Below are positions 27,146 to 63,194 of a stretch of DNA of 64,000 nt, piece after piece. Source of the stretch: Shigella phage Ag3; the sequence record FJ373894, one strand, 5' to 3'. The notes beneath the pieces are model-generated. The model made no database searches, was not told the origin of the DNA, and saw only the letters and a program-made list of their open reading frames with translations. The translations under genes were made by a program, and so were the position numbers. How positions within the stretch are numbered: position 1 is the stretch's first letter; each line of letters begins with the position of its first letter.

Positions 27146-27175
27146 TTTGATGCTCCATCGATAGGTGCCATTATA

Positions 27176-27191
27176 GAGATATTTAGTATAC
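27176..27191 (-). promoter_or_regulatory. late-promoter-like ACTAAATATCTC upstream of giant structural gene
   Basis: About 35 nt upstream of ATG 27145. Confidence 0.3.
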
Positions 27192-27203
27192 AGCCAACCG
27201 AGG

Positions 27204-27236
27204 AATAGAAAGAAAAAGCCCCTCATCTGAGGGGCT
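27204..27236 (-). terminator. rho-independent terminator after tailspike A
   Basis: Minus-strand AGCCCCTCAGATGAGGGGCT followed by TTTTTCTTTC. Confidence 0.65.
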
Positions 27237-27243
27237 TTGTCTA

Positions 27244-43681: not shown

Positions 43682-43761
43682 TGGAGGATGATGGAAGGGG
43701 TAGACATTCCCTGAGGGGATGGCGGCAGCCGTTGAAGGTTCGAATCCTTCTCCTCCAACCA
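43682..43761 (+). tRNA. tRNA-Ser-like (anticodon UGA), non-canonical
   Basis: Perfect acceptor TGGAGGA/TCCTCCA and T-arm GAAGGTTCGAATCCTTC; long variable arm; C at position 33 and poor D-stem. Confidence 0.4.
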
Positions 43762-43946
43762 AATTGAGGGGCGATAGTTTAAGGGATAGTTGTCCGGACA
43801 GCGAATCCTCATAGAGAACGGCTGGGCGGCCAAACCCAGCAGGTGAGGTGAAAATCCTCAAACCCCGCCAAACATTGTTGGACTGCCAGCAAGCTCCGGT
43901 CTACGGCAGGCGTGATGGGATCGCGGAATTCAAATACCGCCTTGGG

Positions 43947-43956
43947 AGCACCTAAA
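43947..43956 (+). promoter_or_regulatory. late-promoter-like CTAAATAAAC upstream of small ORF
   Basis: About 35 nt upstream of ATG 43989. Confidence 0.3.
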
Positions 43957-43988
43957 TAAACCAGTTGTTCAATAAACAACTGGTGAGT

Positions 43989-44189
43989 ATGATGAAAACG
44001 TTCGGTGATTTTATTGCTGAGTGGGATGGCCTCGCCACCGACAACAAAGAGATTGTCGAGTTTGTTGAAAAGCGAGGTGACAAGTGGGTTGTCCTTGACC
44101 ACACCAAGACGAAGGTTCTTGGTACACATGACACCAAAGCTGACGCTGATGCCCAATTAAGGGCGATTGAAGCGAACAAGCACGGATAA
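43989..44189 (+). CDS. small hypothetical protein (66 aa)
   Basis: ORF track 43965..44189; ATG at 43989 after GGTGAG; CTAAATAA motif upstream. Confidence 0.4.
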   Translation: MMKTFGDFIAEWDGLATDNKEIVEFVEKRGDKWVVLDHTKTKVLGTHDTKADADAQLRAIEANKHG

Positions 44190-44190
44190 A

Positions 44191-44266
44191 GACGATGTAG
44201 TTCAGTCGGTAGAACGGCGGTCTGTTAAACCGTATGTCGCAGGTTCAAGTCCTGCCATCGTCGCCA
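44191..44266 (+). tRNA. tRNA-Asn (anticodon GUU)
   Basis: Cloverleaf by hand: acceptor GACGATG/CATCGTC, loop CTGTTAA, T-arm GCAGGTTCAAGTCCTGC, encoded CCA. Confidence 0.85.
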
Positions 44267-44523
44267 GACAATGGGTGTGAACGAAAGTGAATAGGCACGA
44301 AGTACGCGACCGACAAGCTCCAAGCCTCTGTCCAATAGCCGAACGGAATCTGAAGACGACGATAGTAACGCCCACCAAATTCAGAGTGTAGAGGCTACAG
44401 TAGTGCGCACCTCACGGGTTGCTACACCGGACACTCTGATACAAATCTGCCGCTGCGTGGATTAGCTGAGGAAGGATGGCCGATGTCCTCGAGCGTGGCC
44501 CAGCACGCAGCGGTAGACCAAAT

Positions 44524-44607
44524 GTGAGTGTGGCAGAGCGGTCGAATGCAGGAGACTGTAAATCTCCCCGTAACAGCGCGGTGGTTCGAATCCATCCACT
44601 CACACCA
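44524..44607 (+). tRNA. tRNA-Tyr (anticodon GUA)
   Basis: Acceptor GTGAGTG/CACTCAC, anticodon arm GGAGACTGTAAATCTCC, long variable arm, T-arm GGTGGTTCGAATCCATC, CCA. Confidence 0.85.
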
Positions 44608-44829
44608 AACACAGTAAGCGTTGCAGCCAGCTGTGTATAAAATGGGGTGACTCCACATCGGAAACGATGCCCCAACTTCCAGAAATGGTCGGGCGCAAAG
44701 CCTGTAAAGTTCCAGGAGATCGAACCAGAAGGCACTGGTCGCCAGTTAACCAATCGGCGCTGAGAAGCGCGGGGAGTTGGGCTACGGCAGATCAAATGCT
44801 CAATCGGGTGTGAATCCCGTTCAAATTTC

Positions 44830-44913
44830 GCGGGAGCCATAGGGGTTGGACAGTAGCCGACTGATCATCGGCGACGATCACTGGACAGGTTCGAATCCTG
44901 ATCTCCCGCTCCA
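44830..44913 (+). tRNA. tRNA-like gene, possibly Ile (GAU) or pseudo-tRNA
   Basis: Acceptor GCGGGAG/CTCCCGC, anticodon stem GCCGA/TCGGC with loop CTGATCA, T-loop TTCGAAT; extra base and 12-nt variable region. Confidence 0.35.
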
Positions 44914-44917
44914 AATT

Positions 44918-45006
44918 GGAAGGTTGCCCGAGAGGTTTAAGGGACTCGACTGCTAATCGAGTGGGGCTTTTAGCCCCCGAAGGTTCGAATCCTTCACCTT
45001 CCGCCA
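44918..45006 (+). tRNA. tRNA-Ser (anticodon GCU)
   Basis: Acceptor GGAAGGT/ACCTTCC, D-stem CCC/GGG, loop CTGCTAA, variable arm GGGGC/GCCCC, T-arm GAAGGTTCGAATCCTTC, CCA. Confidence 0.85.
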
Positions 45007-46872: not shown

Positions 46873-48129
46873 ATGAACAAATTCGCTGCACAACCCCTCG
46901 CTCCATATATTCCGTTTCACACGTTAGGGAAAGGTCCATACAAAACGATTTTTGATGTCCTCTCTCTTCATCGTGAACATATTCACTGGGAAGACTACCT
47001 CTACAAACACACTCCGTGTGAACTCGTCGCCAACCCCGAAACTAACCAGCAGGTCTGGTTCAAGCGTGAAGATTACTTCGCGCCGCTATCTTGTTATATG
47101 AATGGCAAGCAGGGCATCAACGGCAGCAAACTCCGTCAGGCCATCTGGCTCATGGTTGAGCACCTGAAGGCCGGAGGCTCCCCTGACATCATCCACGGCA
47201 CTGTCGTTGGTAGTCCGCAGTCCCCTATGGCGACGGCAGTCTCTCGGCACTTCGGCGGCAAGACAACCACTGTACTCGGCGCGACCAAACCCACCACTTG
47301 TATGAACCATGATATGGTGGAAATGAGTGCCTGGTTCGGTAGTGAGTTCAACTTCGTCGGCTCCGGCTACAACAGCACCATCCAACCTCGCTGTAAGAAG
47401 CTCATCGAGCAGGTGAATCCAAAGGCGTACTACCTGGAATATGGTATTACCCTGGACCACACAGTGCATTCCCCCGAGCGCATCGCAGGATTCCATATGC
47501 TGGGCGGCGAGCAGGTTGCTAACATCCCTGACCATATCACCGATCTGATCATCCCTGCTGGATCATGCAACTCATGCACAAGCATCCTGACCGGGCTGGC
47601 GATGCACCCTAAGCCTAATCTGAAGCGTGTTTATCTGATTGGGATTGGACCAAACCGCCTGGACTTCATTGAGAGCCGCCTGCGCATCATCGGCAAACAG
47701 GCCAATCTGCCTCACATTGTCGACTTCACCCGTCGTTATCACGACAACCCAGACTATGTCCACGGCAAGAAGGAGCTTCAGCATGCCTCTAAGAGCGTTT
47801 CGCTGGCTGTCCTCCTAAGTGGTATCAGGCAGAAGGGAGAGCCAGAGGTCGTGCTTCCTCGTTTTGAGGTACACCATTGGGATCTTCACACCACCAATTG
47901 GGTTCGTTACAATGACCTGATGGATTATCAGTGGGGTGATATTGAGTTGCACCCTCGCTATGAAGGCAAGGTCATGACCTGGATCCAGCAGAACAAGCCC
48001 GAGTTGCTCAATGAGAACACTCTGTTCTGGATTGTGGGTAGCAAGCCGTACATCGAGCCAATGAAGGCCGCATGCCCTGAGCTGGCTATCCCAGATGAAG
48101 TGAACGTCAACACCTTCACTCCTTCCTGA
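46873..48129 (+). CDS. PLP-dependent enzyme, fold type II (ACC deaminase/D-cysteine desulfhydrase-like)
   Basis: FKREDYF...NGSKLRQA resembles KRDD...GGNKLRK lysine motif; 418 aa. Confidence 0.6.
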   Translation: MNKFAAQPLAPYIPFHTLGKGPYKTIFDVLSLHREHIHWEDYLYKHTPCELVANPETNQQVWFKREDYFAPLSCYMNGKQGINGSKLRQAIWLMVEHLKAGGSPDIIHGTVVGSPQSPMATAVSRHFGGKTTTVLGATKPTTCMNHDMVEMSAWFGSEFNFVGSGYNSTIQPRCKKLIEQVNPKAYYLEYGITLDHTVHSPERIAGFHMLGGEQVANIPDHITDLIIPAGSCNSCTSILTGLAMHPKPNLKRVYLIGIGPNRLDFIESRLRIIGKQANLPHIVDFTRRYHDNPDYVHGKKELQHASKSVSLAVLLSGIRQKGEPEVVLPRFEVHHWDLHTTNWVRYNDLMDYQWGDIELHPRYEGKVMTWIQQNKPELLNENTLFWIVGSKPYIEPMKAACPELAIPDEVNVNTFTPS

Positions 48130-51123: not shown

Positions 51124-54123
51124 ATGACCGTCTTCTATACGAACGTTGCCCGCCGGGGCAATGACCTGTTGATTCGAATCGCAGATGACATGGGTAATCG
51201 CCGTCTGTTGAAAAAGAAATTCGAACCCACTCTCTATTTACCCACGGCTGATTATTCAAATGTTGAAAAGGTCGGCTTGCTCAACGAACCCCTGGTCTCC
51301 AAGAAGTTCCCTGACATGCGCACTGCCGACAACTACCTTGAGGAGTATAAGGAAGTCCAGGGCGCGGCCATCTATGGACAGACGGATTATGCATACCAGT
51401 TCATCGCCCACAGTTTCCCTGGAAAGATTGAGCCGGATTACTCCAACATCCATATTGCTAACCTCGATATCGAAGTGTTCACCGCTGGGTGGAAAGACGG
51501 GGAGATGACCAAGGGTCCATTCCCTCATCCGACTATTGAGCAGCAGACGTTCAAAGGTAGCGAGGCACGCATCCGCCGCTTCCATCAGCAGGTACTGGCT
51601 AACCATGACTTCATCCGTGAGCACTTTCCCAGTTCCTTTATCAGCAACAACGTGACCGACCAGTTCCCTATCATTGATAGCAATGGCAAGATCACCCAGG
51701 ACATGAATGCAGCGTTCCCTATCACGCTCATCCAGCTTCAGGACATGGCGACCAATAAGTTCATGGTGTGGGGTATGCCGTGCGCGAAGGATCGTGCGAA
51801 GTTCAGATACGATCCAGAAGACGCGGAGATCGGTGGACTTGAGGTGGAGTACAAGGAGTTTGTCACCGAGCAGGATCTGCTGCGATCTTTCCTTGACTTC
51901 TGGTCACAGCGTCAGTTTGATGGCTGGACAGGCTGGAACATTGAAACGTTCGATAGCCCGTATCTTGTTGAGCGCATGAACCAGGTTCTGGGCGAAGCCG
52001 AAACATCGCGCCTCAGTCCTTGGGGTATCATCAAGAAGCGTATCATTCGCGATAAGAAGGGCGATATCACGACGTATCAGTTCGTGGGCTGTCCTATGCT
52101 CGATTATATGCAGATCTACAAGAAGCACACGTACACCACCCGTGAGCGGTACTCTCTTGATTGGATTGCTTACTGTGAGCTGGGTGAGAAGAAGATGGAC
52201 TACAGTGAGAGCAAGTCGCTCTTTGACCTGTACTTCAACGACTATGCCAAACACACCCGATATGGTATCAAGGACGTCAAGCTGGTATGGCGTCTTGAGC
52301 AGAAGCTGCGTTTGCTTCAGCTGATGTTCGTCCTTGCGTACCGCACCAAGTCCAACTATGAAGACGGCCTGGGTACAGTGGCTCCGTGGCTGGCCATGTG
52401 CTACTATCGTCTGTATGAGAAGGGGATAGTGCCTAAGATCCAGCGTGTATACGATGGTCCGACCGATTTTGAGGGCGCATACGTCATGGAGGTGACACCA
52501 GGAATCTACTTCTGGGTCTTCTCTGAGGACTTGAACTCCCTCTACCCTCACATCATCCAGCAATACAACCTCGGTCCTGAGACTATCGTTGGCGACAAAC
52601 ACCAGCGCCGTGAGATCATTGAGGCTATGTGTGAAGAGCTGGCTACTCAGATGAATAACATGGCAACGCCGATGCACAAACGTCGGTTGATGAAAGCCCT
52701 TCACGACAAACTGTTGCGTGCGATTGACGAACGCCTGCAGGTTGTTGATGAACTGGTTGCCCTGGGTGAGTTCCACTTTGAAACCCTGCGCCGCTACAAC
52801 GTGTCCTTCACGCCGAACGTTCAGTTCTTCAGCAACGAGAAGATGTCGTTCCTGTCTGAAATCATGCGCGGTATCTACAGTGACCGTAAAGTAGAGAAGG
52901 CCAAGGGGCTGAAGTACGAGCAGTGGGCTGGTTGGTGTAAAGAGATGGCGAAGGGTGACTTCCATCTTGAGTCTGCGATGAAGTCCCGCTACTACGATCC
53001 AGAGTGGTATGAAGAGCACAAGAACATTGATCTTGATGCACTGACCGAAGTGATGAAGAAGTGGGAAGATCTGGGCGTTGCTCAAGACACCCTACAGCAA
53101 GGTCTGAAGATCTTGATGAACGCAGGTTATGGCGCGATCTCAAACGTCTGGTTCAAAGAGTACTTCAACCTCAACATCGCCGAAGCCATCACCACATCTG
53201 GCCAGCTGATCAACAAATGGAACAAGCGTTACACCGATGATTACCTGAACAAGCTGTGTGGTACGACAGGCCAGGACTTCGTCATCGCGGGTGATACCGA
53301 CTCCAACTACATCTGCATTGAGCGTCTTGTCAAGCAGTTGTGGCCTGATGTTACTGACCATCATGCTATGGTTGATAATATCGACCAATGGATCAAAGAC
53401 AACTACCAGCCGAAGACCAATGAGTGGGCACAGCTTCTGTGTAACACCATGAACGGATTTGAACAGCGCATGGTGTGGGAGCGTGAAGTAATTGCATCAG
53501 CTGCCGTCTGGCGAGCCAAGAAGATGTATGCCATGGCCGTGTACGACAGTGAGGGTATCAAGTACGAGAAGCCGAAGATCAAGTTCAAAGGTCTGGAAGC
53601 CCGTAAGTCCACCACGCCGGAATGGTGTCGTGAGCGTCTTGTTAAGTGCTATGAGAAGATCCTACTCGGCACAGAAGAGGAAGTACAGACGCTCATCTCC
53701 CAGTACAAAGAGGAGTACATGAAGCTCTCTGTAGACGATATCGCCAAGGCGTCAGGCGTGTCCGACATAGAGAAGTGTGTGGCCGCCGACGGCTCGTTCA
53801 TCTCTGGTGCTCACTATGCTGCCAAGGCATGTGTGGGTTACAACCGCATGGTAGAGAAGAACGAAGACCTCGGCCTGCCGATGATTGAGTCGGGTGATAA
53901 GGTCAACATGGTACTGCTGAAGAATGGCAACCCGTTTGGCCAGAATTACTTCGCATATCCTGAGTTCTTCCCCGAGGAACTGGGTATGGGTAAATGGGTG
54001 GATTACCATACAGCCTTTGAGAAGTCCTTCATCGACCCGATTCAGTCCATCCTTGACGTGGTCGGCTGGTCGCACAAGCGTCGTGTGAACCTTCTTGCCA
54101 TGATGCAAAAGAAGAAAGGTTGA
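51124..54123 (+). CDS. DNA polymerase, family B (T4 gp43-like)
   Basis: FTGWNIETFD exo motif, SLYPHII, VIAGDTDS; 999 aa; GGAG RBS. Confidence 0.95.
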   Translation: MTVFYTNVARRGNDLLIRIADDMGNRRLLKKKFEPTLYLPTADYSNVEKVGLLNEPLVSKKFPDMRTADNYLEEYKEVQGAAIYGQTDYAYQFIAHSFPGKIEPDYSNIHIANLDIEVFTAGWKDGEMTKGPFPHPTIEQQTFKGSEARIRRFHQQVLANHDFIREHFPSSFISNNVTDQFPIIDSNGKITQDMNAAFPITLIQLQDMATNKFMVWGMPCAKDRAKFRYDPEDAEIGGLEVEYKEFVTEQDLLRSFLDFWSQRQFDGWTGWNIETFDSPYLVERMNQVLGEAETSRLSPWGIIKKRIIRDKKGDITTYQFVGCPMLDYMQIYKKHTYTTRERYSLDWIAYCELGEKKMDYSESKSLFDLYFNDYAKHTRYGIKDVKLVWRLEQKLRLLQLMFVLAYRTKSNYEDGLGTVAPWLAMCYYRLYEKGIVPKIQRVYDGPTDFEGAYVMEVTPGIYFWVFSEDLNSLYPHIIQQYNLGPETIVGDKHQRREIIEAMCEELATQMNNMATPMHKRRLMKALHDKLLRAIDERLQVVDELVALGEFHFETLRRYNVSFTPNVQFFSNEKMSFLSEIMRGIYSDRKVEKAKGLKYEQWAGWCKEMAKGDFHLESAMKSRYYDPEWYEEHKNIDLDALTEVMKKWEDLGVAQDTLQQGLKILMNAGYGAISNVWFKEYFNLNIAEAITTSGQLINKWNKRYTDDYLNKLCGTTGQDFVIAGDTDSNYICIERLVKQLWPDVTDHHAMVDNIDQWIKDNYQPKTNEWAQLLCNTMNGFEQRMVWEREVIASAAVWRAKKMYAMAVYDSEGIKYEKPKIKFKGLEARKSTTPEWCRERLVKCYEKILLGTEEEVQTLISQYKEEYMKLSVDDIAKASGVSDIEKCVAADGSFISGAHYAAKACVGYNRMVEKNEDLGLPMIESGDKVNMVLLKNGNPFGQNYFAYPEFFPEELGMGKWVDYHTAFEKSFIDPIQSILDVVGWSHKRRVNLLAMMQKKKG

Positions 54124-54176
54124 TTCAATAAACCAAAGGGGGATATAATTCCCCCTGTTAACCCTTTGACAAACAG

Positions 54177-54527
54177 GTGATTGAAATGAAACTCAATAAG
54201 ATTCTTCTGGTGTGCGCTCTGGCTTTCTCTACCACTGCATGCTCCACCCTTCTGGACGTTGCGTCTACTGTAGACCTTGACGCTCCGTCGTTCACCAATG
54301 AACAAGCCGTGTCTAAGATGGAAGATACCATCAAGGCTCATGCCGCTCTTGACAACACCACTCCTGGTCCATTACAGACCGTCTGCAACTATGACGATTC
54401 CATCCAGGAAGACGAAACCTACCACTGCACCACCTACGTGAAGCAGGCCTCTGTCGTACTGTATGCTGACTGCACCGAAGAGCAGTGCGTTGCCACAGGC
54501 TATGACAAAGTGGAGAAAGATCAATGA
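54177..54527 (+). CDS. putative lipoprotein (116 aa)
   Basis: Signal peptide MKLNKILLVCALAFSTTAC. Confidence 0.5.
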   Translation: MIEMKLNKILLVCALAFSTTACSTLLDVASTVDLDAPSFTNEQAVSKMEDTIKAHAALDNTTPGPLQTVCNYDDSIQEDETYHCTTYVKQASVVLYADCTEEQCVATGYDKVEKDQ

Positions 54528-55303
54528 ACAACCTGGTCTGTCTTTACGACGCAAACACGAAGGTCGGCGGCCTGTATCGCGTCCTGGTGGATGTTGATCT
54601 GACGTTGGTCGATAGCCTGTCCCCTTGGGTTCAGTGGTTCAATGAAGAGAACATCGCCGCCGCTGCTATCGCTACGGGGGAACATAAGTCATATCAGTTC
54701 CAGCCGATCACCAAAGAGTGTTATATGGCTCATGCTGGCGACCTGGCTATTCTGATGCGCGAACGTGCACATCCGGCGTGGTTGATACGCCGCGTGTACC
54801 TCGCTGGGCAATGGATGTATGCTCCTACAGGGCGTGATCCTATGGATTGGTGGCGTCGCCCCGATCTGTATGCCAAGATGAACCCGCTTCCTGGTGCTTA
54901 CGAGTTCCTGGTGAATCTGAAGAAGATTCTGCTCGAAGACTTTGACAATGTTGAATTCATCGCAGTGTCCAAGTGTGAGCCGGAACACGAGCGCAGCAAG
55001 CGCCAGTTTGTCTACGACAAGTTCCCTGGTATCTTCAACGGATTTGTCAGTACTGACGAAAAGCATCTGCTGGCAGGCGATGTCCTGATTGATGACAATC
55101 CGAAGTATGTTGAGCCGTGCGGCCTGAACAACATCTTCGTCATCTTTGTTCCTCAGGGCAATTATGAAAAACTGGATCTTTCGAATTCGGAAGATATGCT
55201 TTATATTAAACCAGTAGAAGGCCAGAACCACTTCGACTTCCTGAACCGCAATATTGTCGAAGTGGTGAATCGCCTGATTGGTCATTATCAATACGTCCGA
55301 TAG
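54524..55303 (+). CDS. HAD-superfamily 5'(3')-deoxyribonucleotidase-like phosphatase
   Basis: VLVDVDLTLVD (DxDxT) and DVLIDDNP motifs. Confidence 0.55.
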   Translation: MNNLVCLYDANTKVGGLYRVLVDVDLTLVDSLSPWVQWFNEENIAAAAIATGEHKSYQFQPITKECYMAHAGDLAILMRERAHPAWLIRRVYLAGQWMYAPTGRDPMDWWRRPDLYAKMNPLPGAYEFLVNLKKILLEDFDNVEFIAVSKCEPEHERSKRQFVYDKFPGIFNGFVSTDEKHLLAGDVLIDDNPKYVEPCGLNNIFVIFVPQGNYEKLDLSNSEDMLYIKPVEGQNHFDFLNRNIVEVVNRLIGHYQYVR

Positions 55304-55312
55304 GAGGACATC

Positions 55313-55618
55313 GTGCAAGAACAATCCAAGTTTGGGGAAACCCCAGACAAGCGTTCCGGTGATAGCGATATGGATGGCGTGATTATCCATGTCAACAACT
55401 TTATTCGCCAGCAGGAGACTCCGACTCCTATCGGCGCAGCCAAGGCTCTCCATGACGTACTGGTGGAGATCGGTCAGCGCTCTGAAGCGGATGAAATCTT
55501 CTATAACTTCGACGACCAGTATAAAGTGAAGTTTGAAGAGAATGGTCGTCCGCAGGTTGCTGTATTCTGGGCACCTTGGATGGGCGGCGTGAGCTGGCGT
55601 ATTGAGGATGCTATGTAA
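55313..55618 (+). CDS. hypothetical protein (101 aa)
   Basis: AGGAGGA RBS. Confidence 0.45.
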   Translation: MQEQSKFGETPDKRSGDSDMDGVIIHVNNFIRQQETPTPIGAAKALHDVLVEIGQRSEADEIFYNFDDQYKVKFEENGRPQVAVFWAPWMGGVSWRIEDAM

Positions 55619-56304
55619 TGCTGTCGCTCTACCTGATCACGAATCTCGTCAATCATAAATTCTATATCGGTGTCACTTCAGAACCGGATAGGCGGTTGGC
55701 TGAGCATAAGTGTGGTCAGGGGAGCATTGCATTACAACGAGCGTTCAAGAAATATGGTGAAGACCAGTTCACGTTTGAAGTTCTGTTCCGAGGGAAGGAA
55801 TCAGTTATCCTTGAGATAGAGTCTGAACTGGTCTGTCAGGAGATCCTTGACTCTGGGTGGTGCTACAATATGGTCGTCGGTGGTGGGAAGCCTCCATTGG
55901 CCACGCCTGATTCATCCGCAAAGAGTGCTGCAACCCGCAAACGTTTGATCGCTGAGGGTAAGATCAAGCCACCTCCCCGCATATCGGCTGAGTCACAAAG
56001 AAGGGGTGGTGAAACCAGAAGGAAACTGATATCCGAGGGAGTGATAAAGAAGCCATTACCTCCCTCTCCAGAAGCCCAGAGGCGAGCAGGTGAAACAAGG
56101 AAACAGTTGCATGCTCTTGGCCTGATAGACATTGGTCCTGGCCGCGATGAAACGATTTACAAATGGCAGCACAAAGATGGTCGCATTGTTGAGTTAAGAA
56201 GATGCGATATGGAACTTCAATATGGCCTCCCTTCTGGTAATATAACGAATCTCTTGAAAGGTAGGGCTAAAACATGTCTCGGTTGGAGAATAATGAATGG
56301 CTAA
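55618..56304 (+). CDS. GIY-YIG homing endonuclease (Seg/I-TevI-like)
   Basis: LYLITNLVNHKFYIGVTS...RRLAEH matches GIY-YIG; Arg-rich C-terminal repeats. Confidence 0.8.
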   Translation: MLSLYLITNLVNHKFYIGVTSEPDRRLAEHKCGQGSIALQRAFKKYGEDQFTFEVLFRGKESVILEIESELVCQEILDSGWCYNMVVGGGKPPLATPDSSAKSAATRKRLIAEGKIKPPPRISAESQRRGGETRRKLISEGVIKKPLPPSPEAQRRAGETRKQLHALGLIDIGPGRDETIYKWQHKDGRIVELRRCDMELQYGLPSGNITNLLKGRAKTCLGWRIMNG

Positions 56305-57214
56305 AATAATTGTAGTGAAGGGAACAAGTGGCGTGGGCAAGGGTACGAGAGTGGTCCAGTTCATCGAATGGCTCCGTACGAAGCTGGAGCCTACCGAACT
56401 CACCTACACCATTGGTGACAAGACGCGCCCGTTTGGCCTGAAATTCGAAGAGCTGAAGTTAATCTTCGTCGGCCAGTACACTGTGTCCAACAAATCTGGC
56501 CTGGCCTCCTGGACTTCCATGGATGCTATTCATGCTACCACAGGCTCGGGTGATATCGCTCGTGATCTGGTCAAAGGCTGGCTGGCCCAGGGTTACACTC
56601 TGGTGTGCGAGGGCGAACCTCTGATGCTGTCGGATAAATGGCGTCCTGAATGGATGTTCAAGAACTATCCGATTGAATCACTGTCACTGCTGTACTTTGC
56701 ATACCCTGACCGCTATCAGTACGATGCCCGCATCCGTGGTCGCTCTGGTAAAGAAGCAGGGGACTCCGGCTGGTCGCGCAACGAATCTTACTCCAAGGAG
56801 TTTGAGAAGTCGAAGGCCGAAATGCTGGCGCTGGGCTTCACTGTGGCTGTTGATGATTACAGCGGACAGGATATCCTGTATAAATCACCGGATGCCAACA
56901 CCCAGGAGTTCCTGACCAGGCAGCAGTCGGAGTTGGCGGTACTGCCGTTCGACGCCCCGCTTTGGGTGGTGGGTAATGCGATTTGTCATCAGATACGCTC
57001 TGAACTGCGCGATGTTGACATGCACACCAAAGACTTCTACGCCTACTGCGAAACCAATCCGATGACCCGTGAGGTCGGTGGCCGGGATCCTTTGGCGCAC
57101 AGAGTCCCTGAGAAGCCGCAGAAGGCATCCAAAACTAAAACCAAGGCGAGCGCCCAGCCAGAAGCACCGAAGGCGGCGTCGCGCTCTCTCCTTGACCTGA
57201 TGAAGAAGGGGTGA
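56297..57214 (+). CDS. P-loop kinase (candidate DNA/nucleotide kinase)
   Basis: Walker A VVKGTSGVGKGT; 305 aa; overlaps endonuclease stop. Confidence 0.6.
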   Translation: MAKIIVVKGTSGVGKGTRVVQFIEWLRTKLEPTELTYTIGDKTRPFGLKFEELKLIFVGQYTVSNKSGLASWTSMDAIHATTGSGDIARDLVKGWLAQGYTLVCEGEPLMLSDKWRPEWMFKNYPIESLSLLYFAYPDRYQYDARIRGRSGKEAGDSGWSRNESYSKEFEKSKAEMLALGFTVAVDDYSGQDILYKSPDANTQEFLTRQQSELAVLPFDAPLWVVGNAICHQIRSELRDVDMHTKDFYAYCETNPMTREVGGRDPLAHRVPEKPQKASKTKTKASAQPEAPKAASRSLLDLMKKG

Positions 57215-57414
57215 TCATGAAACGGTTGTCTAATTATCTGTTATTCGTCGGTCTGGTTATGGCAGCCGTTTCAATGTGCGCTGCCCTAGCCTATCATTTC
57301 ACCCCTCTGGGCTTAACAACCTCAGAGAAGTTGAACGTGACTGTGATGTACTGTATTGGCGCGGTGATGTCTATCGGCGCTGCTGGTTACAAAATATTCA
57401 AGGAACCAAAATGA
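57211..57414 (+). CDS. small membrane protein (67 aa)
   Basis: ORF track; hydrophobic. Confidence 0.4.
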   Translation: MIMKRLSNYLLFVGLVMAAVSMCAALAYHFTPLGLTTSEKLNVTVMYCIGAVMSIGAAGYKIFKEPK

Positions 57415-57791
57415 AAATTCAAATCCCTCGCGATGCTGTGGCTGTCGCAATTGACTACACCGGAAACGCCAAGCACATTACTGCCGTGCGCCTGATTCCT
57501 GAAAAGAACTGCGTGATCCCTCAGTTCCAGCTGAACGCCAACCCGTCGTCCAAAGACTTCGGTCAGTGGCTGCAGGCTGCTCCGTTCCGTACCCAGACGA
57601 ATGCCCAGATGTTCATCTCGGGTAAGACCCACACTGCAGCCCGTCTGTGGTTCGTGACCGCTGACCGTCGCTTTGTCGATATGTGGGAGCGCCCGATGGG
57701 GTTCGTGAAACCAGAAGACATTCAGCTGGCTCCTGAGCCTGAAGTTGTTGCTCCTGCCGAGGAAGCGAAAGATGAAGATCAGGTCGGTTGA
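57411..57791 (+). CDS. hypothetical protein (126 aa)
   Basis: ATG overlaps upstream stop (ATGA); AAGGAA RBS; ORF track gives 57276..57791. Confidence 0.5.
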   Translation: MKIQIPRDAVAVAIDYTGNAKHITAVRLIPEKNCVIPQFQLNANPSSKDFGQWLQAAPFRTQTNAQMFISGKTHTAARLWFVTADRRFVDMWERPMGFVKPEDIQLAPEPEVVAPAEEAKDEDQVG

Positions 57792-57957
57792 TTTTATCTT
57801 CATGATGCTGATGTTCGTTATCTTTACGGTTTCACTCGTCGGTGTCATGGTCACAGAAGGGGTTCCACAACGCCCCTTCCTGGTGATTTGTCCTATATCG
57901 ATCACCACTTTCTTCTATCTGGCGTTCCGTGTTGAACTGGGGACCAAACTCAAATGA
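57772..57957 (+). CDS. small membrane protein
   Basis: ORF track 57745..57957; ATG at 57772 after GGAAG. Confidence 0.35.
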   Translation: MKIRSVDFIFMMLMFVIFTVSLVGVMVTEGVPQRPFLVICPISITTFFYLAFRVELGTKLK

Positions 57958-59180
57958 CCCATCTATCTAAAATGCCGACGGGCTACGCGCCCCCGGCTGA
58001 ATGGAAGTACCCGATTGACCTGGCTGTTGATTATCGTAAGCCTGAGAATCGCATGTACCTGCTCAAGGCTTGGGTGGAGGCGCTGTCCTACACCGAAGAG
58101 CACAACCAGCAGATGCGTCTGATGGATTATGCGATCGAAGTCACTGAAGGTATCAGCCTCGAACAGAAAGTCGAGCGCAAGATCTGGATGGCATTCCTTT
58201 GGGGTTGTTGCTACAACGCCATCGGTCCATGGACGATCTACAGTGAGTTCCCTGTGCCACCACAGTCCAAAGAAGAGATGCAGCGCTTCTCTGATTGGTA
58301 CAACCTGAACTTTGATCGCATGCGCTTCGATACCGACTGTCGCTACCGCAAGTCGAAGATGATTCCATGTGTTCAGTCCTATATTGACTGGCTGGCTGGC
58401 CGTACTCAATATGACGCTTTCCGTGAGATGTTGGTGTGCATCGATAAAGCAGAACAATTCACTCAGCTGTGGGACACGGCGATGTCCTGGAAATACTTCG
58501 GTCGCCTCAGTGCCTGGAACTTCCTAGAAGCCCTGAACATGGTCTTCGGGGACGAATACACCATTGACGTCCCTGGCTTCATGCTGCGTGACCGTGATGG
58601 CAGTGAGTCCAACCGTAATGGCGCGGCGTTCTTGTCCAACCGTGATGATTGGGTGACCAAGCATGGGAAGAAAAAGATCAATGGCTGTCCTATCACTGAT
58701 GAAGAGTGTGACATCCTTGAGGCCGACCTTGAACAGGCGTTCAAGGAATGCGTGGCTGAGTTCGGGCATCTGACGTTCATCAATCGCCTGAACTTTGAAA
58801 CCTCCGGCGCATGCTGGCTGAAGAAGTTCTTCCGTGAAAAGAACACCCGTTACATTGGGTGGGATGCCGAGCGTACCTGGGATGAGATCGACTACATGGA
58901 ACGCATCTGGCCGGAGTACTCCTGTGCAGCGCTCTGGGAAGCCCGTTCACTCTGGCTACCAGATACCCTGTTATGCGAAAAGGCACCTCCAGGGCACGTT
59001 CCAGGCGTTCAGAAGTGGAAGATGCCTGTGTTCTTTGAGACTGGCGTTCCTCTGCACATCTGGCATCTGCAAAAGGGTACGCGCTGGGAGCCTGACCAGG
59101 TGTATCGAGAATTGGGTAAACCGAAGATTGATAAACCGAAGTCCAACAGCGTCAACCTCATGGCACTCTTGAAACGCTGA
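57954..59180 (+). CDS. hypothetical protein (408 aa)
   Basis: ORF track; coupled to neighbours. Confidence 0.55.
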   Translation: MTHLSKMPTGYAPPAEWKYPIDLAVDYRKPENRMYLLKAWVEALSYTEEHNQQMRLMDYAIEVTEGISLEQKVERKIWMAFLWGCCYNAIGPWTIYSEFPVPPQSKEEMQRFSDWYNLNFDRMRFDTDCRYRKSKMIPCVQSYIDWLAGRTQYDAFREMLVCIDKAEQFTQLWDTAMSWKYFGRLSAWNFLEALNMVFGDEYTIDVPGFMLRDRDGSESNRNGAAFLSNRDDWVTKHGKKKINGCPITDEECDILEADLEQAFKECVAEFGHLTFINRLNFETSGACWLKKFFREKNTRYIGWDAERTWDEIDYMERIWPEYSCAALWEARSLWLPDTLLCEKAPPGHVPGVQKWKMPVFFETGVPLHIWHLQKGTRWEPDQVYRELGKPKIDKPKSNSVNLMALLKR

Positions 59181-59216
59181 TATAAATATCCTCGCCTATA
59201 AAGTGAGGATATTATC

Positions 59217-59384
59217 ATGTTACAAGATCTGTTGGTCTACGCACTTCCGGGTGTGGTTGTTGGATTCATCGCAGGTGCTCTGGTCTTCCGCAAACACGCG
59301 CAAGACGGTGAAGTGATTGTTCAGAAGGGTAAAGACATCCTGGAACAAATCGAAGCCAAACTGGACGAGCTGAAGAAAAAGTAA
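59217..59384 (+). CDS. small membrane protein (55 aa)
   Basis: Manually found; GTGAGGA RBS; MLQDLLVYALPGVVVGFIAGALVF. Confidence 0.4.
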   Translation: MLQDLLVYALPGVVVGFIAGALVFRKHAQDGEVIVQKGKDILEQIEAKLDELKKK

Positions 59385-59400
59385 TCTGATTGCGATTGCG

Positions 59401-59412
59401 TTCTTCAATAAA
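59401..59412 (+). promoter_or_regulatory. conserved TTCTTCAATAAA motif
   Basis: Also at 62321..62332; reverse orientation at 6527..6538 and 50183..50194. Confidence 0.35.
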
Positions 59413-59450
59413 GGGGAATGGGTTAATATTAGCCCGTTCCCCTTTCTTTT
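59413..59450 (+). terminator. rho-independent terminator
   Basis: GGGGAATGGG...CCCGTTCCCC 10-bp stem then TTTCTTTTT. Confidence 0.65.
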
Positions 59451-59466
59451 TGCAAGGAAATACATC

Positions 59467-59679
59467 ATGGCAATGAAACGAATTGAAGATATGTCCCTAC
59501 TGGATATGGAAGCGACTTTTGGTGATTACTTTGAGTCCACTCCGAAACAAAAAGACCCTCTGGTTGGCCGTCTGGTGGTTTCTGAAGCGTTCGCACAGAA
59601 AGTTCGCGAAGGTCTTCCGCCTGAATATGGGCGCTTCCGTAATGGCGCTTCCGTTATCGTCATGGGTGAATCTAAATGA
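59467..59679 (+). CDS. hypothetical protein (70 aa)
   Basis: AAGGAAATACATC RBS. Confidence 0.45.
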   Translation: MAMKRIEDMSLLDMEATFGDYFESTPKQKDPLVGRLVVSEAFAQKVREGLPPEYGRFRNGASVIVMGESK

Positions 59680-62367: not shown

Positions 62368-62742
62368 ATGGACAAGAACATGACAGACAAGCCAAGAAAG
62401 ATTGCGATTGTTGGAGCCGGACTGGGCTCTCGGTTGATCAAAGTTCTACTGGAAGAGAAGCTACCAGGAGTTGAGGTTGTGCACATCACTCCCGACGATA
62501 TTCCGAAGCGTCGGAGTGAGCCTGGTGAGCGTATGATCATCTGTGACGAGCTACAACAGATGCCGGACACCAAGGCTCTGCTTGTCAAGCTGAAACAACG
62601 AGACACGGAGATGTCTGCTGAATGTGATATGCGGGAGTTCTATGCCGACCGCCGCTATCAAGAACCCACACGCCTGCGTGGAGCCGCTGCTCACAAACGT
62701 CAGGCCACTAAAATGAAGAACAAACGCCGGAGCAAACGCTGA
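62368..62742 (+). CDS. hypothetical basic protein (124 aa)
   Basis: ORF track; follows terminator. Confidence 0.5.
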   Translation: MDKNMTDKPRKIAIVGAGLGSRLIKVLLEEKLPGVEVVHITPDDIPKRRSEPGERMIICDELQQMPDTKALLVKLKQRDTEMSAECDMREFYADRRYQEPTRLRGAAAHKRQATKMKNKRRSKR

Positions 62743-63194
62743 TGACTACCAAACCAACTTATGAAGAATTGGCACAGACCATTCTGACCTTTGACAGTAC
62801 TCTGAAGACCCTGTACAAGGTGCTGGGGAATAACCCGACTTCGGAGTCAGGCAACACAGTCAATCTTCTGTTACTGCTGAACCCTCTGTGGGATATTGAT
62901 GCCACTGTTGCTGCCCTGAAAGATCCTGGGGCACAGGAACCGGAACCGGAGCCAGCCCCTGTATCCACGGGGATTCAGAATTATCTGGAGAACTTTGATG
63001 AGTACTCCTTCACTGACCTGCTCCTGCGCGATATGATCAACGCAGAACGCCGTCGCCAGGAAAAGAACTGTCCTGTGGTCCAGTCTGATGAAGAAATCGA
63101 GCAGAGCGTTCGCGAAGGACTGGAGGCTTCTATAGGCCTGGCTGTGATGATTGTTCAGGCGCTGTCCTATGCTGCCAAGGGGGAAACGAAATGA
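62742..63194 (+). CDS. hypothetical acidic protein (150 aa)
   Basis: ORF track; ATGA overlap with upstream stop. Confidence 0.5.
   Translation: MTTKPTYEELAQTILTFDSTLKTLYKVLGNNPTSESGNTVNLLLLLNPLWDIDATVAALKDPGAQEPEPEPAPVSTGIQNYLENFDEYSFTDLLLRDMINAERRRQEKNCPVVQSDEEIEQSVREGLEASIGLAVMIVQALSYAAKGETK

What the first reader, a model, noticed from the sequence alone, without database searches (positions are those of the whole stretch)
56297..57214. P-loop kinase next to homing endonuclease, candidate 5-hydroxymethyl-dU DNA kinase
Walker A VVKGTSGVGKGT in a 305-aa protein that does not look like a classic dNMP kinase. P-loop kinases that phosphorylate 5-hmdU in DNA are the first step of several phage thymidine hypermodification pathways. 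The downstream 408-aa unknown protein (57954..59180) could be a partner transferase.
Basis: inference. Interest (0 to 1): 0.55.

Follow-up and report, generated by a model that had tools for sequence, protein, structure and literature searches.

The report
Phage 5-hydroxymethyluracil DNA kinase, clamp-tethered?
The gene is the known second 5-hydroxymethyl-dU DNA kinase of ViI-like phages, the first step of an already characterised DNA-camouflage pathway; unexpectedly, it and its partner enzymes end in the same short peptide as the phage DNA polymerase, which suggests they ride on the replication sliding clamp.

Summary
ORF 56297..57214 (305 aa, Walker A GTSGVGKGT) matches Pfam PF18747 '5-hmdU DNA kinase 2' over its full length (E 1e-159). 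It is 85% identical to, and syntenic with, Salmonella phage ViI gp243, which was shown in vitro to phosphorylate 5-hmdU in DNA. The 408-aa neighbour is the amino acid:DNA transferase (88% identical to ViI gp247, serine:DNA transferase). The PLP decarboxylase (92% identical to gp226) lies at 46873..48129. The window is an Agtrevirus-like Ackermannviridae genome. The dUMP hydroxymethyltransferase lies outside it but is present in all close relatives. As a function this is already known; public records mislabel it 'guanylate kinase'.

One thing appears to be unreported. The kinase, the transferase, the gp160-type paralog and a loop of the PLP enzyme carry the same short peptide as the C-terminus of the phage's own DNA polymerase. 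This peptide changes in concert between lineages: NLLxMMKK in enteric phages, [KR][KR]L[WF] in Vibrio phages, and a T4-like V[FL]DLF in a third lineage. In the Vibrio phage the gp33 late-transcription coactivator also has it. In T4, polymerase and gp33 tails are clamp-binding epitopes. I infer that the post-replicative enzymes are tethered to the sliding clamp. This is not demonstrated.

The parts
56297..57214 (+). 5-hmdU DNA kinase 2 (HMUD2 family; ortholog of ViI gp243), 305 aa
   Evidence: ORF. PF18747 E 1.1e-159, profile 1-298/298. 85% identical to ViI gp243 with conserved synteny. AlphaFold pLDDT 86, pTM 0.83.
56321..56347 (+). Walker A / P-loop, residues 9-17 (GTSGVGKGT)
   Evidence: G9, S11, G14, K15, G16 and R18 are invariant in 29 diverse homologs down to 40% identity. 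Further invariant motifs are S64-N65-K66-S67, S71-W72-x-S74-M75-D76, E105-G106-E107, R116-P117 and R145...R149-S150-G151.
57098..57175 (+). Low-complexity K/P/A/S linker (about residues 268-293) after the invariant P265-L266-A267
   Evidence: Length and sequence vary across the 83 clusters, from 0 to about 35 residues, and the linker is deleted in the 285-aa variants. pLDDT is 45-63 in the model.
57176..57211 (+). C-terminal docking peptide ASRSLLDLMKKG (residues 294-305); predicted sliding-clamp-binding epitope
   Evidence: Predicted helix at 298-303. Same motif class as the polymerase and transferase C-termini. Only 3 of 465 window ORFs match the strict motif. The motif co-varies between lineages.
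57954..59180 (+). Amino acid:DNA transferase (ADDT/AADT, formerly aGPT-Pplase clade 2); ortholog of ViI gp247 serine:DNA transferase, 408 aa
   Evidence: PF18724 E 2e-60. 88% identical to gp247. Invariant Cys and Glu residues, including C341-E342 and E282...C287, across three lineages.
59142..59177 (+). C-terminal docking peptide of the transferase, SNSVNLMALLKR
   Evidence: PSSM rank 2 of 49,774 8-mers.
46873..48129 (+). PLP-dependent decarboxylase (ortholog of ViI gp226), 418 aa
   Evidence: tblastn 92% identity. BLASTP 382/414 identical with the NGSK(92)LR lysine conserved. PALP scores 30 bits, below Pfam's cutoff of 35.
47782..47841 (+). Variable internal loop of the PLP enzyme, HASKSVSLAVLLSGIRQKGE; possible internal docking motif
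   Evidence: It is the only poorly conserved stretch of the protein. It reads SVSLAGLL in ViI, KTKTLLALMGGEK in L012, and PKTRRLFGG in both Vibrio phages, matching each lineage's tail class. The window's own loop is not in the top 15 of the PSSM scan.
51124..54123 (+). Family B (T4 gp43-like) DNA polymerase, 999 aa, uninterrupted
   Evidence: ORF. Annotated as DNA polymerase in all relatives.
54079..54120 (+). Polymerase C-terminal peptide RRVNLLAMMQKKKG, at the position of the T4 gp43 clamp-binding epitope
   Evidence: PSSM rank 1. T4 gp43 889-EKASLDFLFG-898 binds gp45 (PMC6212786).
55618..56304 (+). GIY-YIG (SegD-like) homing endonuclease inserted between orf240 and the kinase
   Evidence: PF01541, phrog_19446 E 5e-106. 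Overlaps the orf240 stop (TAATG) and the kinase start. Absent at this site in ViI, Klebsiella phage May and phiMAM1.
54524..55303 (+). NT5C-like 5'(3')-deoxyribonucleotidase, a conserved neighbour
   Evidence: PF06941 E 1.8e-8. Conserved upstream of the kinase in all lineages, including L011.
57211..57791 (+). Two small ORFs between kinase and transferase: a 67-aa membrane-like protein and a 126-aa protein (phrog_4163). These are orthologs of ViI orf244 and orf245; function unknown.
   Evidence: Absent in the Vibrio phages and phiMAM1, where kinase and transferase abut, so they are probably not core to the pathway.

Best explanation
ORF 56297..57214 encodes the HMUD2-type 5-hydroxymethyl-2'-deoxyuridine DNA kinase of an Agtrevirus-like Ackermannviridae phage, the ortholog of ViI gp243.

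Established for ViI and inferred here by orthology: the phage makes 5-hmdUMP with a thymidylate-synthase homolog and incorporates 5-hmdU into DNA in place of T. The kinase then uses ATP to phosphorylate the 5-hydroxymethyl group of 5-hmdU residues in the polymerised DNA, giving 5-phosphomethyl-dU. Phosphate serves as the leaving group for the adjacent amino acid:DNA transferase (57954..59180), which attaches serine through its side-chain oxygen. The PLP decarboxylase (46873..48129) then removes CO2 to leave 5-(2-aminoethoxy)methyl-dU, which blocks host restriction enzymes.

Inferred from the sequence: Walker A K15/T17 bind the ATP phosphates, and E105/E107, D76 and the RIxGRSGK arginines complete the active site.

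My additional inference: the folded kinase core (residues 1 to about 267) is joined by a disordered linker to a 12-residue C-terminal peptide of the same class as the DNA polymerase C-terminus. This peptide docks the kinase, and likewise the transferase, its gp160-type paralog and probably the decarboxylase, on the phage sliding clamp, so that modification is coupled to newly replicated DNA.
For: Identity of the kinase:
- PF18747 full length, E 1.1e-159.
- 85% identical to ViI gp243, with the same gene order.
- ViI gp243 phosphorylates 5-hmdU in DNA in vitro, and gp247 and gp226 are the serine transferase and decarboxylase (PMC8989533 and PMC5889632).
- The transferase is 88% and the decarboxylase 92% identical to the ViI enzymes, with catalytic residues retained.
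- Catalytic motifs are invariant across 29 homologs.
- The thyA-like gene plus a gp67 ortholog are present in the nearest relative and co-occur genus by genus with the kinase.

Tether:
- Only the polymerase, kinase and transferase among 465 window ORFs carry the motif, and they rank 1, 2 and 3= of 49,774 8-mers.
- The same set of proteins carries a different shared peptide in each lineage. Enteric genera and L012 have NLLxMM. Vibrio phages have [KR][KR]L[WF]. L011 has V[FL]DLF or MGFFQ, and that result was predicted before it was seen.
- A whole-genome scan of Vibrio phage 1.244.A found 7 terminal hits among about 920 ORFs where about 0.6 are expected: polymerase, gp33 coactivator, kinase 2, transferase, gp160-like and two small unknown proteins.
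- T4 gp43, gp33 and gp55 bind the clamp through interchangeable C-terminal epitopes on variable linkers (PMC2988020; PMC6212786).
- T4 alpha-glucosyltransferase co-purifies with gp45 (PMC13216743).
- The kinase linker is low-confidence and the tail is helical in the model.
- The tail-coding DNA is only 10-14/24 nt identical between genes.
Against: Kinase: there is no biochemical test of this particular protein. The dUMP hydroxymethyltransferase and the gp67/gp160 orthologs are not in the 64-kb window, so the full pathway in this genome is inferred from relatives. The amino acid attached, and hence the final base, is assumed from 88% identity to gp247.

Tether:
- No binding data exist.
- The clamp gene is not in the window.
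- The enteric tails are basic, whereas the T4 epitopes are described as hydrophobic and acidic.
- Vibrio polymerases keep an internal RVNLFAL segment in addition to the terminal RKLW, so two motifs or two partners cannot be excluded.
- The ViI gp33 and gp55 tails (...LLKGELKSKKLI...TLLAESVGEKNNGDC) match the enteric motif only loosely.
- The window's PLP loop does not score in an unbiased PSSM scan, and an internal site in a 1,658-aa structural protein scores as high as the kinase tail.
- The polymerase of the L011 lineage could not be retrieved.
Confidence: 0.9

Rival explanations
1. It is a nucleotide (guanylate, thymidylate or dNMP) kinase acting on free nucleotides, for example converting 5-hmdUMP to 5-hmdUDP before replication. 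This is what the 'guanylate kinase' label in RefSeq and PHROGs implies.
For: phrog_4409 and many RefSeq records call it guanylate kinase. The best Foldseek hits in the PDB are guanylate kinases. The phage does need a kinase for 5-hmdUMP.
Confidence: 0.03
2. It is a polynucleotide 5'-hydroxyl kinase (an end-healing enzyme like T4 Pnk, Pnkp or Trl1) that phosphorylates DNA or RNA ends rather than the base.
Confidence: 0.02
3. The kinase assignment is right, but the shared C-terminal peptide does not bind the sliding clamp. It binds some other common partner (for example SSB, helicase or primase, or a scaffold of a modification complex), or it is a degradation or localisation signal.
For: No binding data exist. 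Vibrio polymerases carry both an internal RVNLFAL segment and the terminal RKLW. The enteric tails are basic rather than acidic. Two small unknown Vibrio proteins also carry the tail.
Against: The peptide sits where T4 and RB69 gp43 carry their clamp epitope. In the Vibrio phage it is also on gp33, whose only known C-terminal ligand is the clamp, and a related ARLF lies near the end of the gp55-type sigma factor. The L011 lineage tails (KNVFDLF, KSVLDLF) closely resemble the crystallographically defined T4 LDFLF motif. SSB, gp59, RNase H, ligase and the clamp loader lack the motif.
Confidence: 0.2

Closest known systems
Salmonella phage ViI gp243 (YP_004327565; 'Kinase2' of Lee et al. 2018, 5-hmdU DNA kinase of Lee et al. 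2021)
   Same: Same Pfam family (PF18747), 85% identity over the full length, same position in a conserved gene order, and the same partner genes (gp247 and gp226 orthologs at 88% and 92%). It has the same linker-plus-tail architecture, with tail SSVSLLGLMRKA.
   Different: It comes from a different subfamily (an Agtrevirus-like Aglimvirinae phage rather than Kuttervirus). A GIY-YIG homing endonuclease is inserted immediately upstream here and is absent in ViI. Residues 195-245 and the linker are the most divergent parts.
HMUD1-type 5-hmdU DNA kinases (PF18748: ViI gp67, M6 gp54, PhiW-14 gp37)
   Same: They catalyse the same reaction in vitro. They are distant paralogs with collinear motifs: P-loop, GxY..SxKSG hairpin, EG, WxP, RxxxRxG (hhalign E 0.0024).
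   Different: They form a separate Pfam family, are about 85 residues shorter, and sit next to the thyA-like gene rather than next to the transferase. They lack the linker and polymerase-like tail: ViI gp67 ends ...FLNRDFGSID and the Vibrio ortholog ends ...FLNRDWS.
T4 sliding-clamp (gp45) ligands gp43, gp33, gp55 and DNA ligase
   Same: Each has a short hydrophobic epitope at the extreme C-terminus (or in a loop, for ligase), joined by a divergent linker of variable length, and shared between the polymerase and other clients of the same phage (PMC2988020, PMC6212786). The window's kinase, transferase and polymerase show this pattern.
   Different: The motif sequence differs: NLLxMMKK here, LDFLF in T4. 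The clients are base-modification enzymes, which are not known as clamp ligands in this pathway. Binding is untested.
T4 alpha-glucosyltransferase-gp45 interaction (Sommer 2004; PMC13216743). By analogy, eukaryotic DNMT1-PCNA (my own knowledge).
   Same: A post-replicative DNA base-modifying enzyme physically associated with the replication clamp.
   Different: For alpha-GT the interaction was found biochemically, and promoter-swap experiments suggest it is not the main determinant of modification level. Here an entire multi-step pathway (kinase, two glycosylase-fold proteins and probably the decarboxylase) carries the motif, and the evidence comes from sequence alone.
P-loop NMP and polynucleotide kinases (guanylate and adenylate kinase, Trl1, Pnkp)
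   Same: Core Rossmann-like P-loop kinase fold with a lid helix.

Membership tests
HMUD2 / 5-hmdU DNA kinase 2 (Pfam PF18747) | Full-length match to the family profile above the gathering score | tested here: met
   530.9 bits against a cutoff of 25, E 1.1e-159, profile 1-298/298. All 83 homolog clusters carry PF18747.
HMUD2 / 5-hmdU DNA kinase 2 (Pfam PF18747) | P-loop (Walker A) and the family's invariant catalytic motifs | tested here: met
   GTSGVGKGT at residues 9-17. Invariant K15, D76, E105/E107, R116, R145, R149-S150-G151 in 29 sequences down to 40% identity.
HMUD2 / 5-hmdU DNA kinase 2 (Pfam PF18747) | Orthology and synteny with the biochemically characterised member, ViI gp243 | tested here: met
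   85% identity with 304/305 residues aligned. Same flanking genes on both sides.
HMUD2 / 5-hmdU DNA kinase 2 (Pfam PF18747) | Genomic linkage to an amino acid:DNA transferase that uses 5-PmdU | tested here: met
   PF18724 gene 0.7 kb downstream, 88% identical to gp247. The linkage is conserved in every lineage examined.
HMUD2 / 5-hmdU DNA kinase 2 (Pfam PF18747) | Same genome encodes a dUMP hydroxymethyltransferase (thymidylate-synthase homolog) that supplies 5-hmdU | tested here: inconclusive
   No homolog within the 64-kb window. By synteny it would lie about 37 kb beyond the window's 3' end. It is present in the nearest relative P46FS4, next to a gp67 ortholog, and it co-occurs genus by genus with the kinase.
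HMUD2 / 5-hmdU DNA kinase 2 (Pfam PF18747) | ATP-dependent phosphorylation of 5-hmdU in DNA | not testable with these tools
   Shown for ViI gp243 by LC-MS and 32P transfer (PMC8989533), not for this protein.
HMUD1 / 5-hmdU DNA kinase (Pfam PF18748, gp67 type) | Match to PF18748 | tested here: not met
   The window protein hits only PF18747. ViI gp67 hits PF18748. Profile-profile comparison of the two gives E 0.0024 and probability 12%.
Guanylate / dNMP / thymidylate kinase (as labelled in RefSeq and PHROGs) | Match to an NMP-kinase sequence family or a close structural match | tested here: not met
   No such Pfam or NCBIfam hit. PDB profile search finds guanylate kinase only at E 0.76 over 14 residues of P-loop. 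Foldseek TM is 0.3-0.45.
Polynucleotide 5'-kinase (T4 Pnk / Pnkp / Trl1) | Sequence or specific structural similarity beyond the generic P-loop kinase core | tested here: not met
T4-type sliding-clamp clients (C-terminal clamp-binding epitope) | Short hydrophobic peptide at the extreme C-terminus, shared with the cognate DNA polymerase's C-terminus | tested here: met
   Kinase SRSLLDLMKKG, transferase SVNLMALLKR, polymerase RVNLLAMMQKKKG. Only 3 of 465 ORFs match. PSSM ranks 1, 2 and 3=.
T4-type sliding-clamp clients (C-terminal clamp-binding epitope) | Epitope joined to the folded domain by a divergent linker of variable length | tested here: met
   The linker is 0 to about 35 residues and compositionally biased across the 83 clusters. 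pLDDT is 45-63.
T4-type sliding-clamp clients (C-terminal clamp-binding epitope) | Motif co-varies with that of known clamp ligands (gp43, gp33, gp55) across lineages | tested here: met
   There are three motif classes, each shared within a genome. Vibrio gp33 ends KTRKLF and the gp55-type sigma factor has ARLF near its end. The match to ViI gp33 and gp55 is weaker.
T4-type sliding-clamp clients (C-terminal clamp-binding epitope) | Physical binding to the clamp | not testable with these tools
   The clamp gene is not in the window.

The most novel reading that the evidence does not exclude
The post-replicative thymidine-hypermodification enzymes of Ackermannviridae are clients of the phage sliding clamp. 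These are kinase 2 (gp243 type), the amino acid:DNA transferase (gp247 type), its gp160-type paralog, and probably the PLP decarboxylase through an internal loop. Each carries the same lineage-specific docking peptide as the DNA polymerase and, in Vibrio phages, as the gp33 late-transcription coactivator. The pathway would then work as a clamp-tethered assembly line on freshly replicated DNA. This would also explain why these phages keep two kinases: a tail-less gp67 type and a tethered gp243 type. I found no report of this in the papers searched.
Probability: 0.7. Interest if true: 0.65.

Novelty: already known. Interest (0 to 1): 0.4.

Why it matters
As a gene call this is ordinary. The enzyme family, its reaction and the whole pathway to 5-(2-aminoethoxy)methyl-dU were worked out for phage ViI in 2018-2021. 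The practical value is corrected annotation. Hundreds of public Ackermannviridae records label this gene 'guanylate kinase' or 'hypothetical', and label its paralog gp67 'terminase small subunit'.

The shared polymerase-like docking peptide matters more. If it does bind the sliding clamp, it gives a physical mechanism for coupling a multi-step base hypermodification to replication. It offers a rationale for the unexplained redundancy of two kinases and two glycosylase-fold proteins. It may also bear on why only a fraction of thymidines is modified. More generally, it shows that clamp clients in T4-like phages can be found by searching a genome for proteins that share the polymerase's C-terminal peptide. 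The hypothesis is directly testable with peptides and tail-deletion mutants.

Tried and rejected
- **Pathway genes in the window.** tblastn of ViI gp67, the thyA-like protein, gp160, dnk and the gp45 clamp against the window found nothing. Only gp226 is present, so the hydroxymethylase criterion could be addressed only through relatives.
- **Source genome.** An exact-sequence look-up of the window's kinase found no record, so the source genome could not be retrieved.
- **Solved structures.** Sequence search of the PDB with the family profile and with the transferase found no relative.
- **Guanylate/dNMP kinase and polynucleotide kinase readings.** Rejected on profile and fold evidence.
- **Repeated DNA element at gene 3' ends.** Rejected as the cause of tail similarity. 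The coding DNA is only 42-58% identical, with different codons and different downstream sequence.
- **PSSM check of the PLP loop.** A position matrix trained on C-terminal tails did not pick out the window's PLP loop and gave one equally high internal hit in a structural protein. The PLP-loop claim therefore rests only on cross-lineage co-variation.
- **Vibrio gp55.** I first read the Vibrio gp55-like tail as matching the polymerase's internal RVNLFAL rather than KLW. On re-reading it contains ARLF, and gp33 ends KTRKLF, which supports the clamp.
- **L011 polymerase.** The polymerase of the L011 lineage could not be obtained. It is not within 10 kb of the kinase, and look-ups are restricted to window or homolog proteins.
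- **Technical limit.** Loci fetched in batches were not all exported to the script machine, so ViI itself could not be scanned genome-wide. The Vibrio phage was scanned instead.
Full report
**Observation.** A GGAGA ribosome-binding site lies 8 nt upstream of the start. The upstream ORF 55618..56304 is a GIY-YIG SegD-like homing endonuclease (PF01541; phrog_19446, E 5e-106). Its start overlaps the stop of the preceding gene (TAATG) and its stop overlaps the kinase start by 8 nt. The 408-aa ORF is at 57954..59180 as stated. The window has about 50% G+C throughout.

**What the window is.** Megablast of 54000-60000 finds 276 phage records, all Ackermannviridae-type. The best are Salmonella phage P46FS4 (94%), SKML-39 (96.5% over 89%) and Shigella phage ChubbyThor (95%). 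P46FS4 is classified as Ackermannviridae; Aglimvirinae; Agtrevirus. No record is identical, and the exact kinase sequence is not in the large protein collection (nearest cluster 97%). This is therefore an unsequenced or unindexed relative of that genus. The window is collinear with ViI from about 94 to 157 kb.

**Identity of the kinase.**
- Pfam gives one hit, PF18747 HMUD2 '5-hmdU DNA kinase 2', at 530.9 bits (cutoff 25), E 1.1e-159, covering profile positions 1-298 of 298.
- NCBIfam has nothing.
- PHROGs places it in phrog_4409, whose label 'guanylate kinase' also appears in many RefSeq records.
- Escherichia phage RPN242 annotates the ortholog as 'P-loop nucleotide kinase 2' and the 408-aa neighbour as 'alpha-glutamyl/putrescinyl thymine pyrophosphorylase clade 2'.
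- I fetched the ViI genome. Its orf00243 (YP_004327565, gp243) lies in the same gene order: DNA pol - orf237 - orf239 (NT5C-like) - orf240 - kinase - 244 - 245 - 247. It is 85% identical to the window protein over the full length.
- Lee et al. 2018 listed gp243 as 'Kinase2' and reconstituted 5-NeOmdU synthesis from lysates expressing gp67, gp160, gp226, gp243 and gp247 (PMC5889632).
- Lee et al. 2021 showed that ViI gp67 and gp243 each convert 5-hmdU in DNA to the 418-u nucleotide 5-PmdU. They also showed that purified gp247 transfers serine to 5-PmdU DNA to give O-serinyl-thymidine, and that gp226 is a PLP-dependent decarboxylase (PMC8989533).

**Partners in the window.**
- The 408-aa protein hits PF18724 'amino acid:DNA transferase' (E 2e-60) and is 88% identical to gp247.
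- Across eight orthologs from three lineages its invariant residues include C85, C86, C129, C139, C252, C287, C341-E342 and E282. This is compatible with the essential Cys/Glu pair reported for gp247. The main text of that paper does not give residue numbers, so I cannot say which pair it is.
- tblastn with ViI proteins finds the gp226 ortholog at 46873..48129 (92% identity), with the NGSK92LR lysine conserved. Its PALP score of 30 bits is below Pfam's cutoff of 35, consistent with the published need for fold recognition.
- gp67 (PF18748 HMUD1), the thyA-like dUMP hydroxymethyltransferase (PF00303, E 1e-14), gp160 (PF18723) and the gp45 clamp are not in the window.
- In the nearest relative P46FS4 the module gp67-ortholog (mislabelled 'terminase small subunit') - thyA-like - dNMP kinase - dUTPase-like is present. 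By synteny it would lie about 37 kb beyond the window's 3' end.
- The thyA-like gene is found in 392 records, and its genus counts match those of the kinase: Salmonella 162/162, Dickeya 19/19, Serratia 10/10, Shigella 4/4, Vibrio 66/65.

**Fold and catalytic residues.**
- Twenty-nine homologs down to 40% identity share these invariant residues: G9, S11, G14, K15, G16, R18 (P-loop); S64-N65-K66-S67; S71-W72, S74-M75-D76, H79; E105-G106-E107; R116-P117; R139, R145, R149-S150-G151; W159, R161; and P265-L266.
- The AlphaFold model built on that alignment is confident (mean pLDDT 86, pTM 0.83). It shows a folded core to about residue 267, low confidence at about 270-297, and a terminal helix at 298-303.
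- Foldseek's best hits are guanylate kinases at E 1e-3 and TM 0.3-0.45. No solved structure is detectable by sequence.
- The protein is therefore a divergent P-loop kinase, with beta-hairpin and helical additions that presumably form the DNA-binding surface (inference). It is no closer to dNMP kinases than to polynucleotide kinases.
- It is a distant paralog of the gp67/HMUD1 kinases (hhalign E 0.0024, 23% identity over 132 collinear columns).

**An unexpected feature: a polymerase-like C-terminal peptide.** Reading the translations, I saw that three window proteins end alike: DNA polymerase ...RRVNLLAMMQKKKG, kinase ...ASRSLLDLMKKG and transferase ...SNSVNLMALLKR. ViI gp160 ends ...SVNLLDRLKKPE.
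- A strict regular expression matches 3 of 465 window ORFs of at least 40 aa, and they are these three.
- A weight matrix trained on 17 tails ranks them 1, 2 and joint 3 among 49,774 8-mers. One internal site in the 1,658-aa structural protein ties with the kinase.
- The coding DNA of the three tails is only 10-14/24 nt identical, with different Leu codons and unrelated downstream sequence. The similarity is therefore selected at the peptide level and does not come from a repeated DNA element.

**Co-variation across lineages.** The peptide differs between lineages but is shared within each genome.

| Lineage | Polymerase | Kinase 2 | Transferase | gp160-type |
|---|---|---|---|---|
| Serratia phiMAM1 | RVNLLSMMGKR | SSNLLAMLLRNKK | SVNLLSMLGGKK | not examined |
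| Klebsiella phage May | RVNLLAMMGKKG | SSNVLAMMLRK | SVNLMSLMKK | not examined |
| Metagenomic L012 | KVNLLAMMGKK | TNSILRHLGK | SKNLLSLLKG | not examined |
| Vibrio 1.244.A | ARKLW | KTKRLW | KTRKLW | TKRLW |
| Vibrio D503 | ARKLW | KTKKLW | KTRKLW | not examined |
| Metagenomic L011 | not retrieved | TTKNVFDLF | TTNDLMGFFQ | TTKSVLDLF |

- Among the 83 kinase clusters the tails fall into these classes plus a third, TTKNVFDLF / TTKNVFSFF. The linker between the invariant PLA motif and the tail varies from 0 to about 35 residues.
- I used the third class as a prospective test. On contig L011 the transferase and the gp160-type protein carry tails of the same class as the kinase, and none of the other 25 genes does.
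- The PLP decarboxylase has a single poorly conserved internal loop that carries the lineage's motif: SKSVSLAGLL in ViI, KTKTLLALMGGEK in L012, and PKTRRLFGG in both Vibrio phages. The window's own loop, SKSVSLAVLL, is not picked up by the weight matrix. This part is suggestive only.

**Why the clamp is the likely partner.**
- In T4 the C-terminal EKASLDFLFG of gp43 binds the gp45 clamp, and the LDFLF loop of DNA ligase binds it with a Kd of about 11 uM in a crystallographically defined pocket (PMC6212786).
- gp43, gp55 and gp33 carry 'highly similar', interchangeable C-terminal epitopes joined by divergent linkers of variable length (PMC2988020). The kinase has this same architecture. The L011 tails resemble LDFLF.
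- I scanned the whole genome of Vibrio phage 1.244.A (about 920 ORFs of at least 40 aa) for ends matching [KR][KR]L[WF] followed by 0-2 residues. There are seven hits where about 0.6 are expected, given a 4-mer frequency of 2.1e-4 per position. They are the polymerase, the gp33-type late-transcription coactivator (...KNKTRKLF), kinase 2, the transferase, the gp160-type protein, and two small unknown proteins, NVP1244A_078 and _191.
- The gp55-type sigma factor (phrog_234; 40% identical to ViI's) has ARLF twelve residues from its end.
- SSB, gp59, RNase H, ligase and the clamp loader lack the motif.
- There is precedent for a clamp-bound base-modifying enzyme: T4 alpha-glucosyltransferase co-purifies with gp45 (PMC13216743).
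- Neither hypermodification paper mentions a clamp, and targeted searches found no paper linking these enzymes to it.

**Caveats on the tether.**
- There are no binding data.
- The enteric tails are basic rather than acidic.
- Vibrio polymerases retain an internal RVNLFAL segment in addition to the terminal RKLW.
- The ViI gp33 and gp55 tails match the enteric motif only loosely.
- The polymerase of the L011 lineage could not be retrieved.
- I put the probability that the peptide binds a partner shared with the polymerase at about 0.85, and that this partner is the clamp at about 0.7.

**Mechanism proposed.**
- Established for ViI and carried over by orthology: dUMP is converted to 5-hmdUMP by the thyA-like enzyme, which lies outside the window. 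5-hmdU is incorporated into DNA. The kinase converts it with ATP to 5-PmdU. The transferase adds serine to give O-SerT. The PLP decarboxylase yields 5-NeOmdU.
- Inferred: K15/T17 bind the ATP phosphates, E105/E107 and D76 act in metal binding or as the catalytic base, and the R145/R149 lid stabilises the transition state.
- Inferred and apparently new: the linker and tail tether the post-replicative enzymes to clamps left on nascent DNA. The tail-less gp67-type kinase would act in a distributive manner.

**Verdict.** As a function the finding is already known, being an ortholog of a characterised enzyme in a named Pfam family, so the intrinsic interest is modest. The docking-peptide pattern raises the interest somewhat and is the part worth following up.

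Noticed in passing
window 55618..56304; L008:8239-9834; L006:8265-8948; L012:9324-10004: A GIY-YIG homing endonuclease occupies the exact junction between orf240 and the kinase. It is present here and in RPN242, Vibrio D503 and metagenomic L012, and absent in ViI, Klebsiella phage May and phiMAM1. In Dickeya phage Ds25CZ a different GIY-YIG domain is fused in frame to the kinase as one 531-aa ORF (PF18747 at residues 236-530, P-loop retained). Several 495-532-aa clusters in the homolog list look the same.
   Followed up: partly
L008:8239-9834 versus window 56297..57214: Mosaic kinase allele. The Dickeya kinase is only about 52% identical to the window's overall, but its last roughly 44 residues (linker plus tail) differ by a single substitution. 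This suggests recombination or gene conversion around the endonuclease insertion site.
   Followed up: no
window 51124..54123; L001:1-3124; L008:4259-6747; L005:2573-8014: The family B DNA polymerase gene is uninterrupted in the window. In RPN242, Dickeya Ds25CZ and Vibrio 1.244.A it is split into two or three pieces by inserted ORFs, including a homing endonuclease. One ORF between the split Vibrio polymerase fragments (NVP1244A_191) ends in the clamp-type tail KAKTATRRLF.
   Followed up: no
window 43682..45006: A cluster of four tRNA genes (Ser-TGA, Asn-GTT, Tyr-GTA, Ser-GCT) lies in an ORF-poor stretch at 41.6-45.5 kb, upstream of the PLP decarboxylase.
   Followed up: no
public records of relatives (e.g. 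NC_049509.1 92846-93508; NC_015296.1 38203-38865 and 149619-150533): Systematic misannotation. The HMUD2 kinase is labelled 'guanylate kinase' or 'putative thioredoxin/hypothetical'. The HMUD1 kinase gp67 (PF18748, E 2.5e-116) is labelled 'terminase small subunit' in RefSeq.
   Followed up: yes
window 22307..27283 (-), about residue 655; window 62742..63194: Two other sequences score with the tail weight matrix: an internal QSINLLALMV in the 1,658-aa structural protein (18.4 bits, equal to the kinase tail) and TVNLLLLLNPLW in a 150-aa ORF (13.7 bits). They are probably buried hydrophobic segments, but this was not examined.
   Followed up: no
L014:11041-11307 (MG592609 60040-60306) and L014:23673-24209: In Vibrio phage 1.244.A an 88-aa protein of unknown function, just upstream of a DNA-binding protein and the ligase, ends in KKPKTKRLW. 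A 178-aa protein ends KKRFRKLFGLGS. Both are candidate additional clamp clients.
   Followed up: no
L005 and L006 (Vibrio phages 1.244.A and D503): In the Vibrio Ackermannviridae the whole pathway lies in one block of about 20 kb: PLP enzyme, sigma-70-like protein, DNA pol, HAD/NT5C, kinase 2, transferase, gp160-type, HMUD1 kinase, thyA-like, dNMP kinase, dUTPase. In the enteric phages it is scattered over three loci. In 1.244.A the annotated HMUD1 ORF (170 aa) matches the profile only from position 41, so its P-loop may be missing or the start miscalled.
   Followed up: no
L012:1472-2161: A 229-aa protein next to the PLP enzyme in contig L012 ends ...KKRKTFFERLMGFLPIFRR. This resembles some kinase tail variants (SIWDRLFGGKK, SILDRMRGAK). 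Its family, phrog_38772, has no known function.
   Followed up: no
window 57211..57791: The two small ORFs between kinase and transferase (a 67-aa membrane-like protein and a 126-aa protein, phrog_4163) are conserved in enteric Ackermannviridae. They are absent in Vibrio phages and phiMAM1, where the two enzymes abut.
   Followed up: partly
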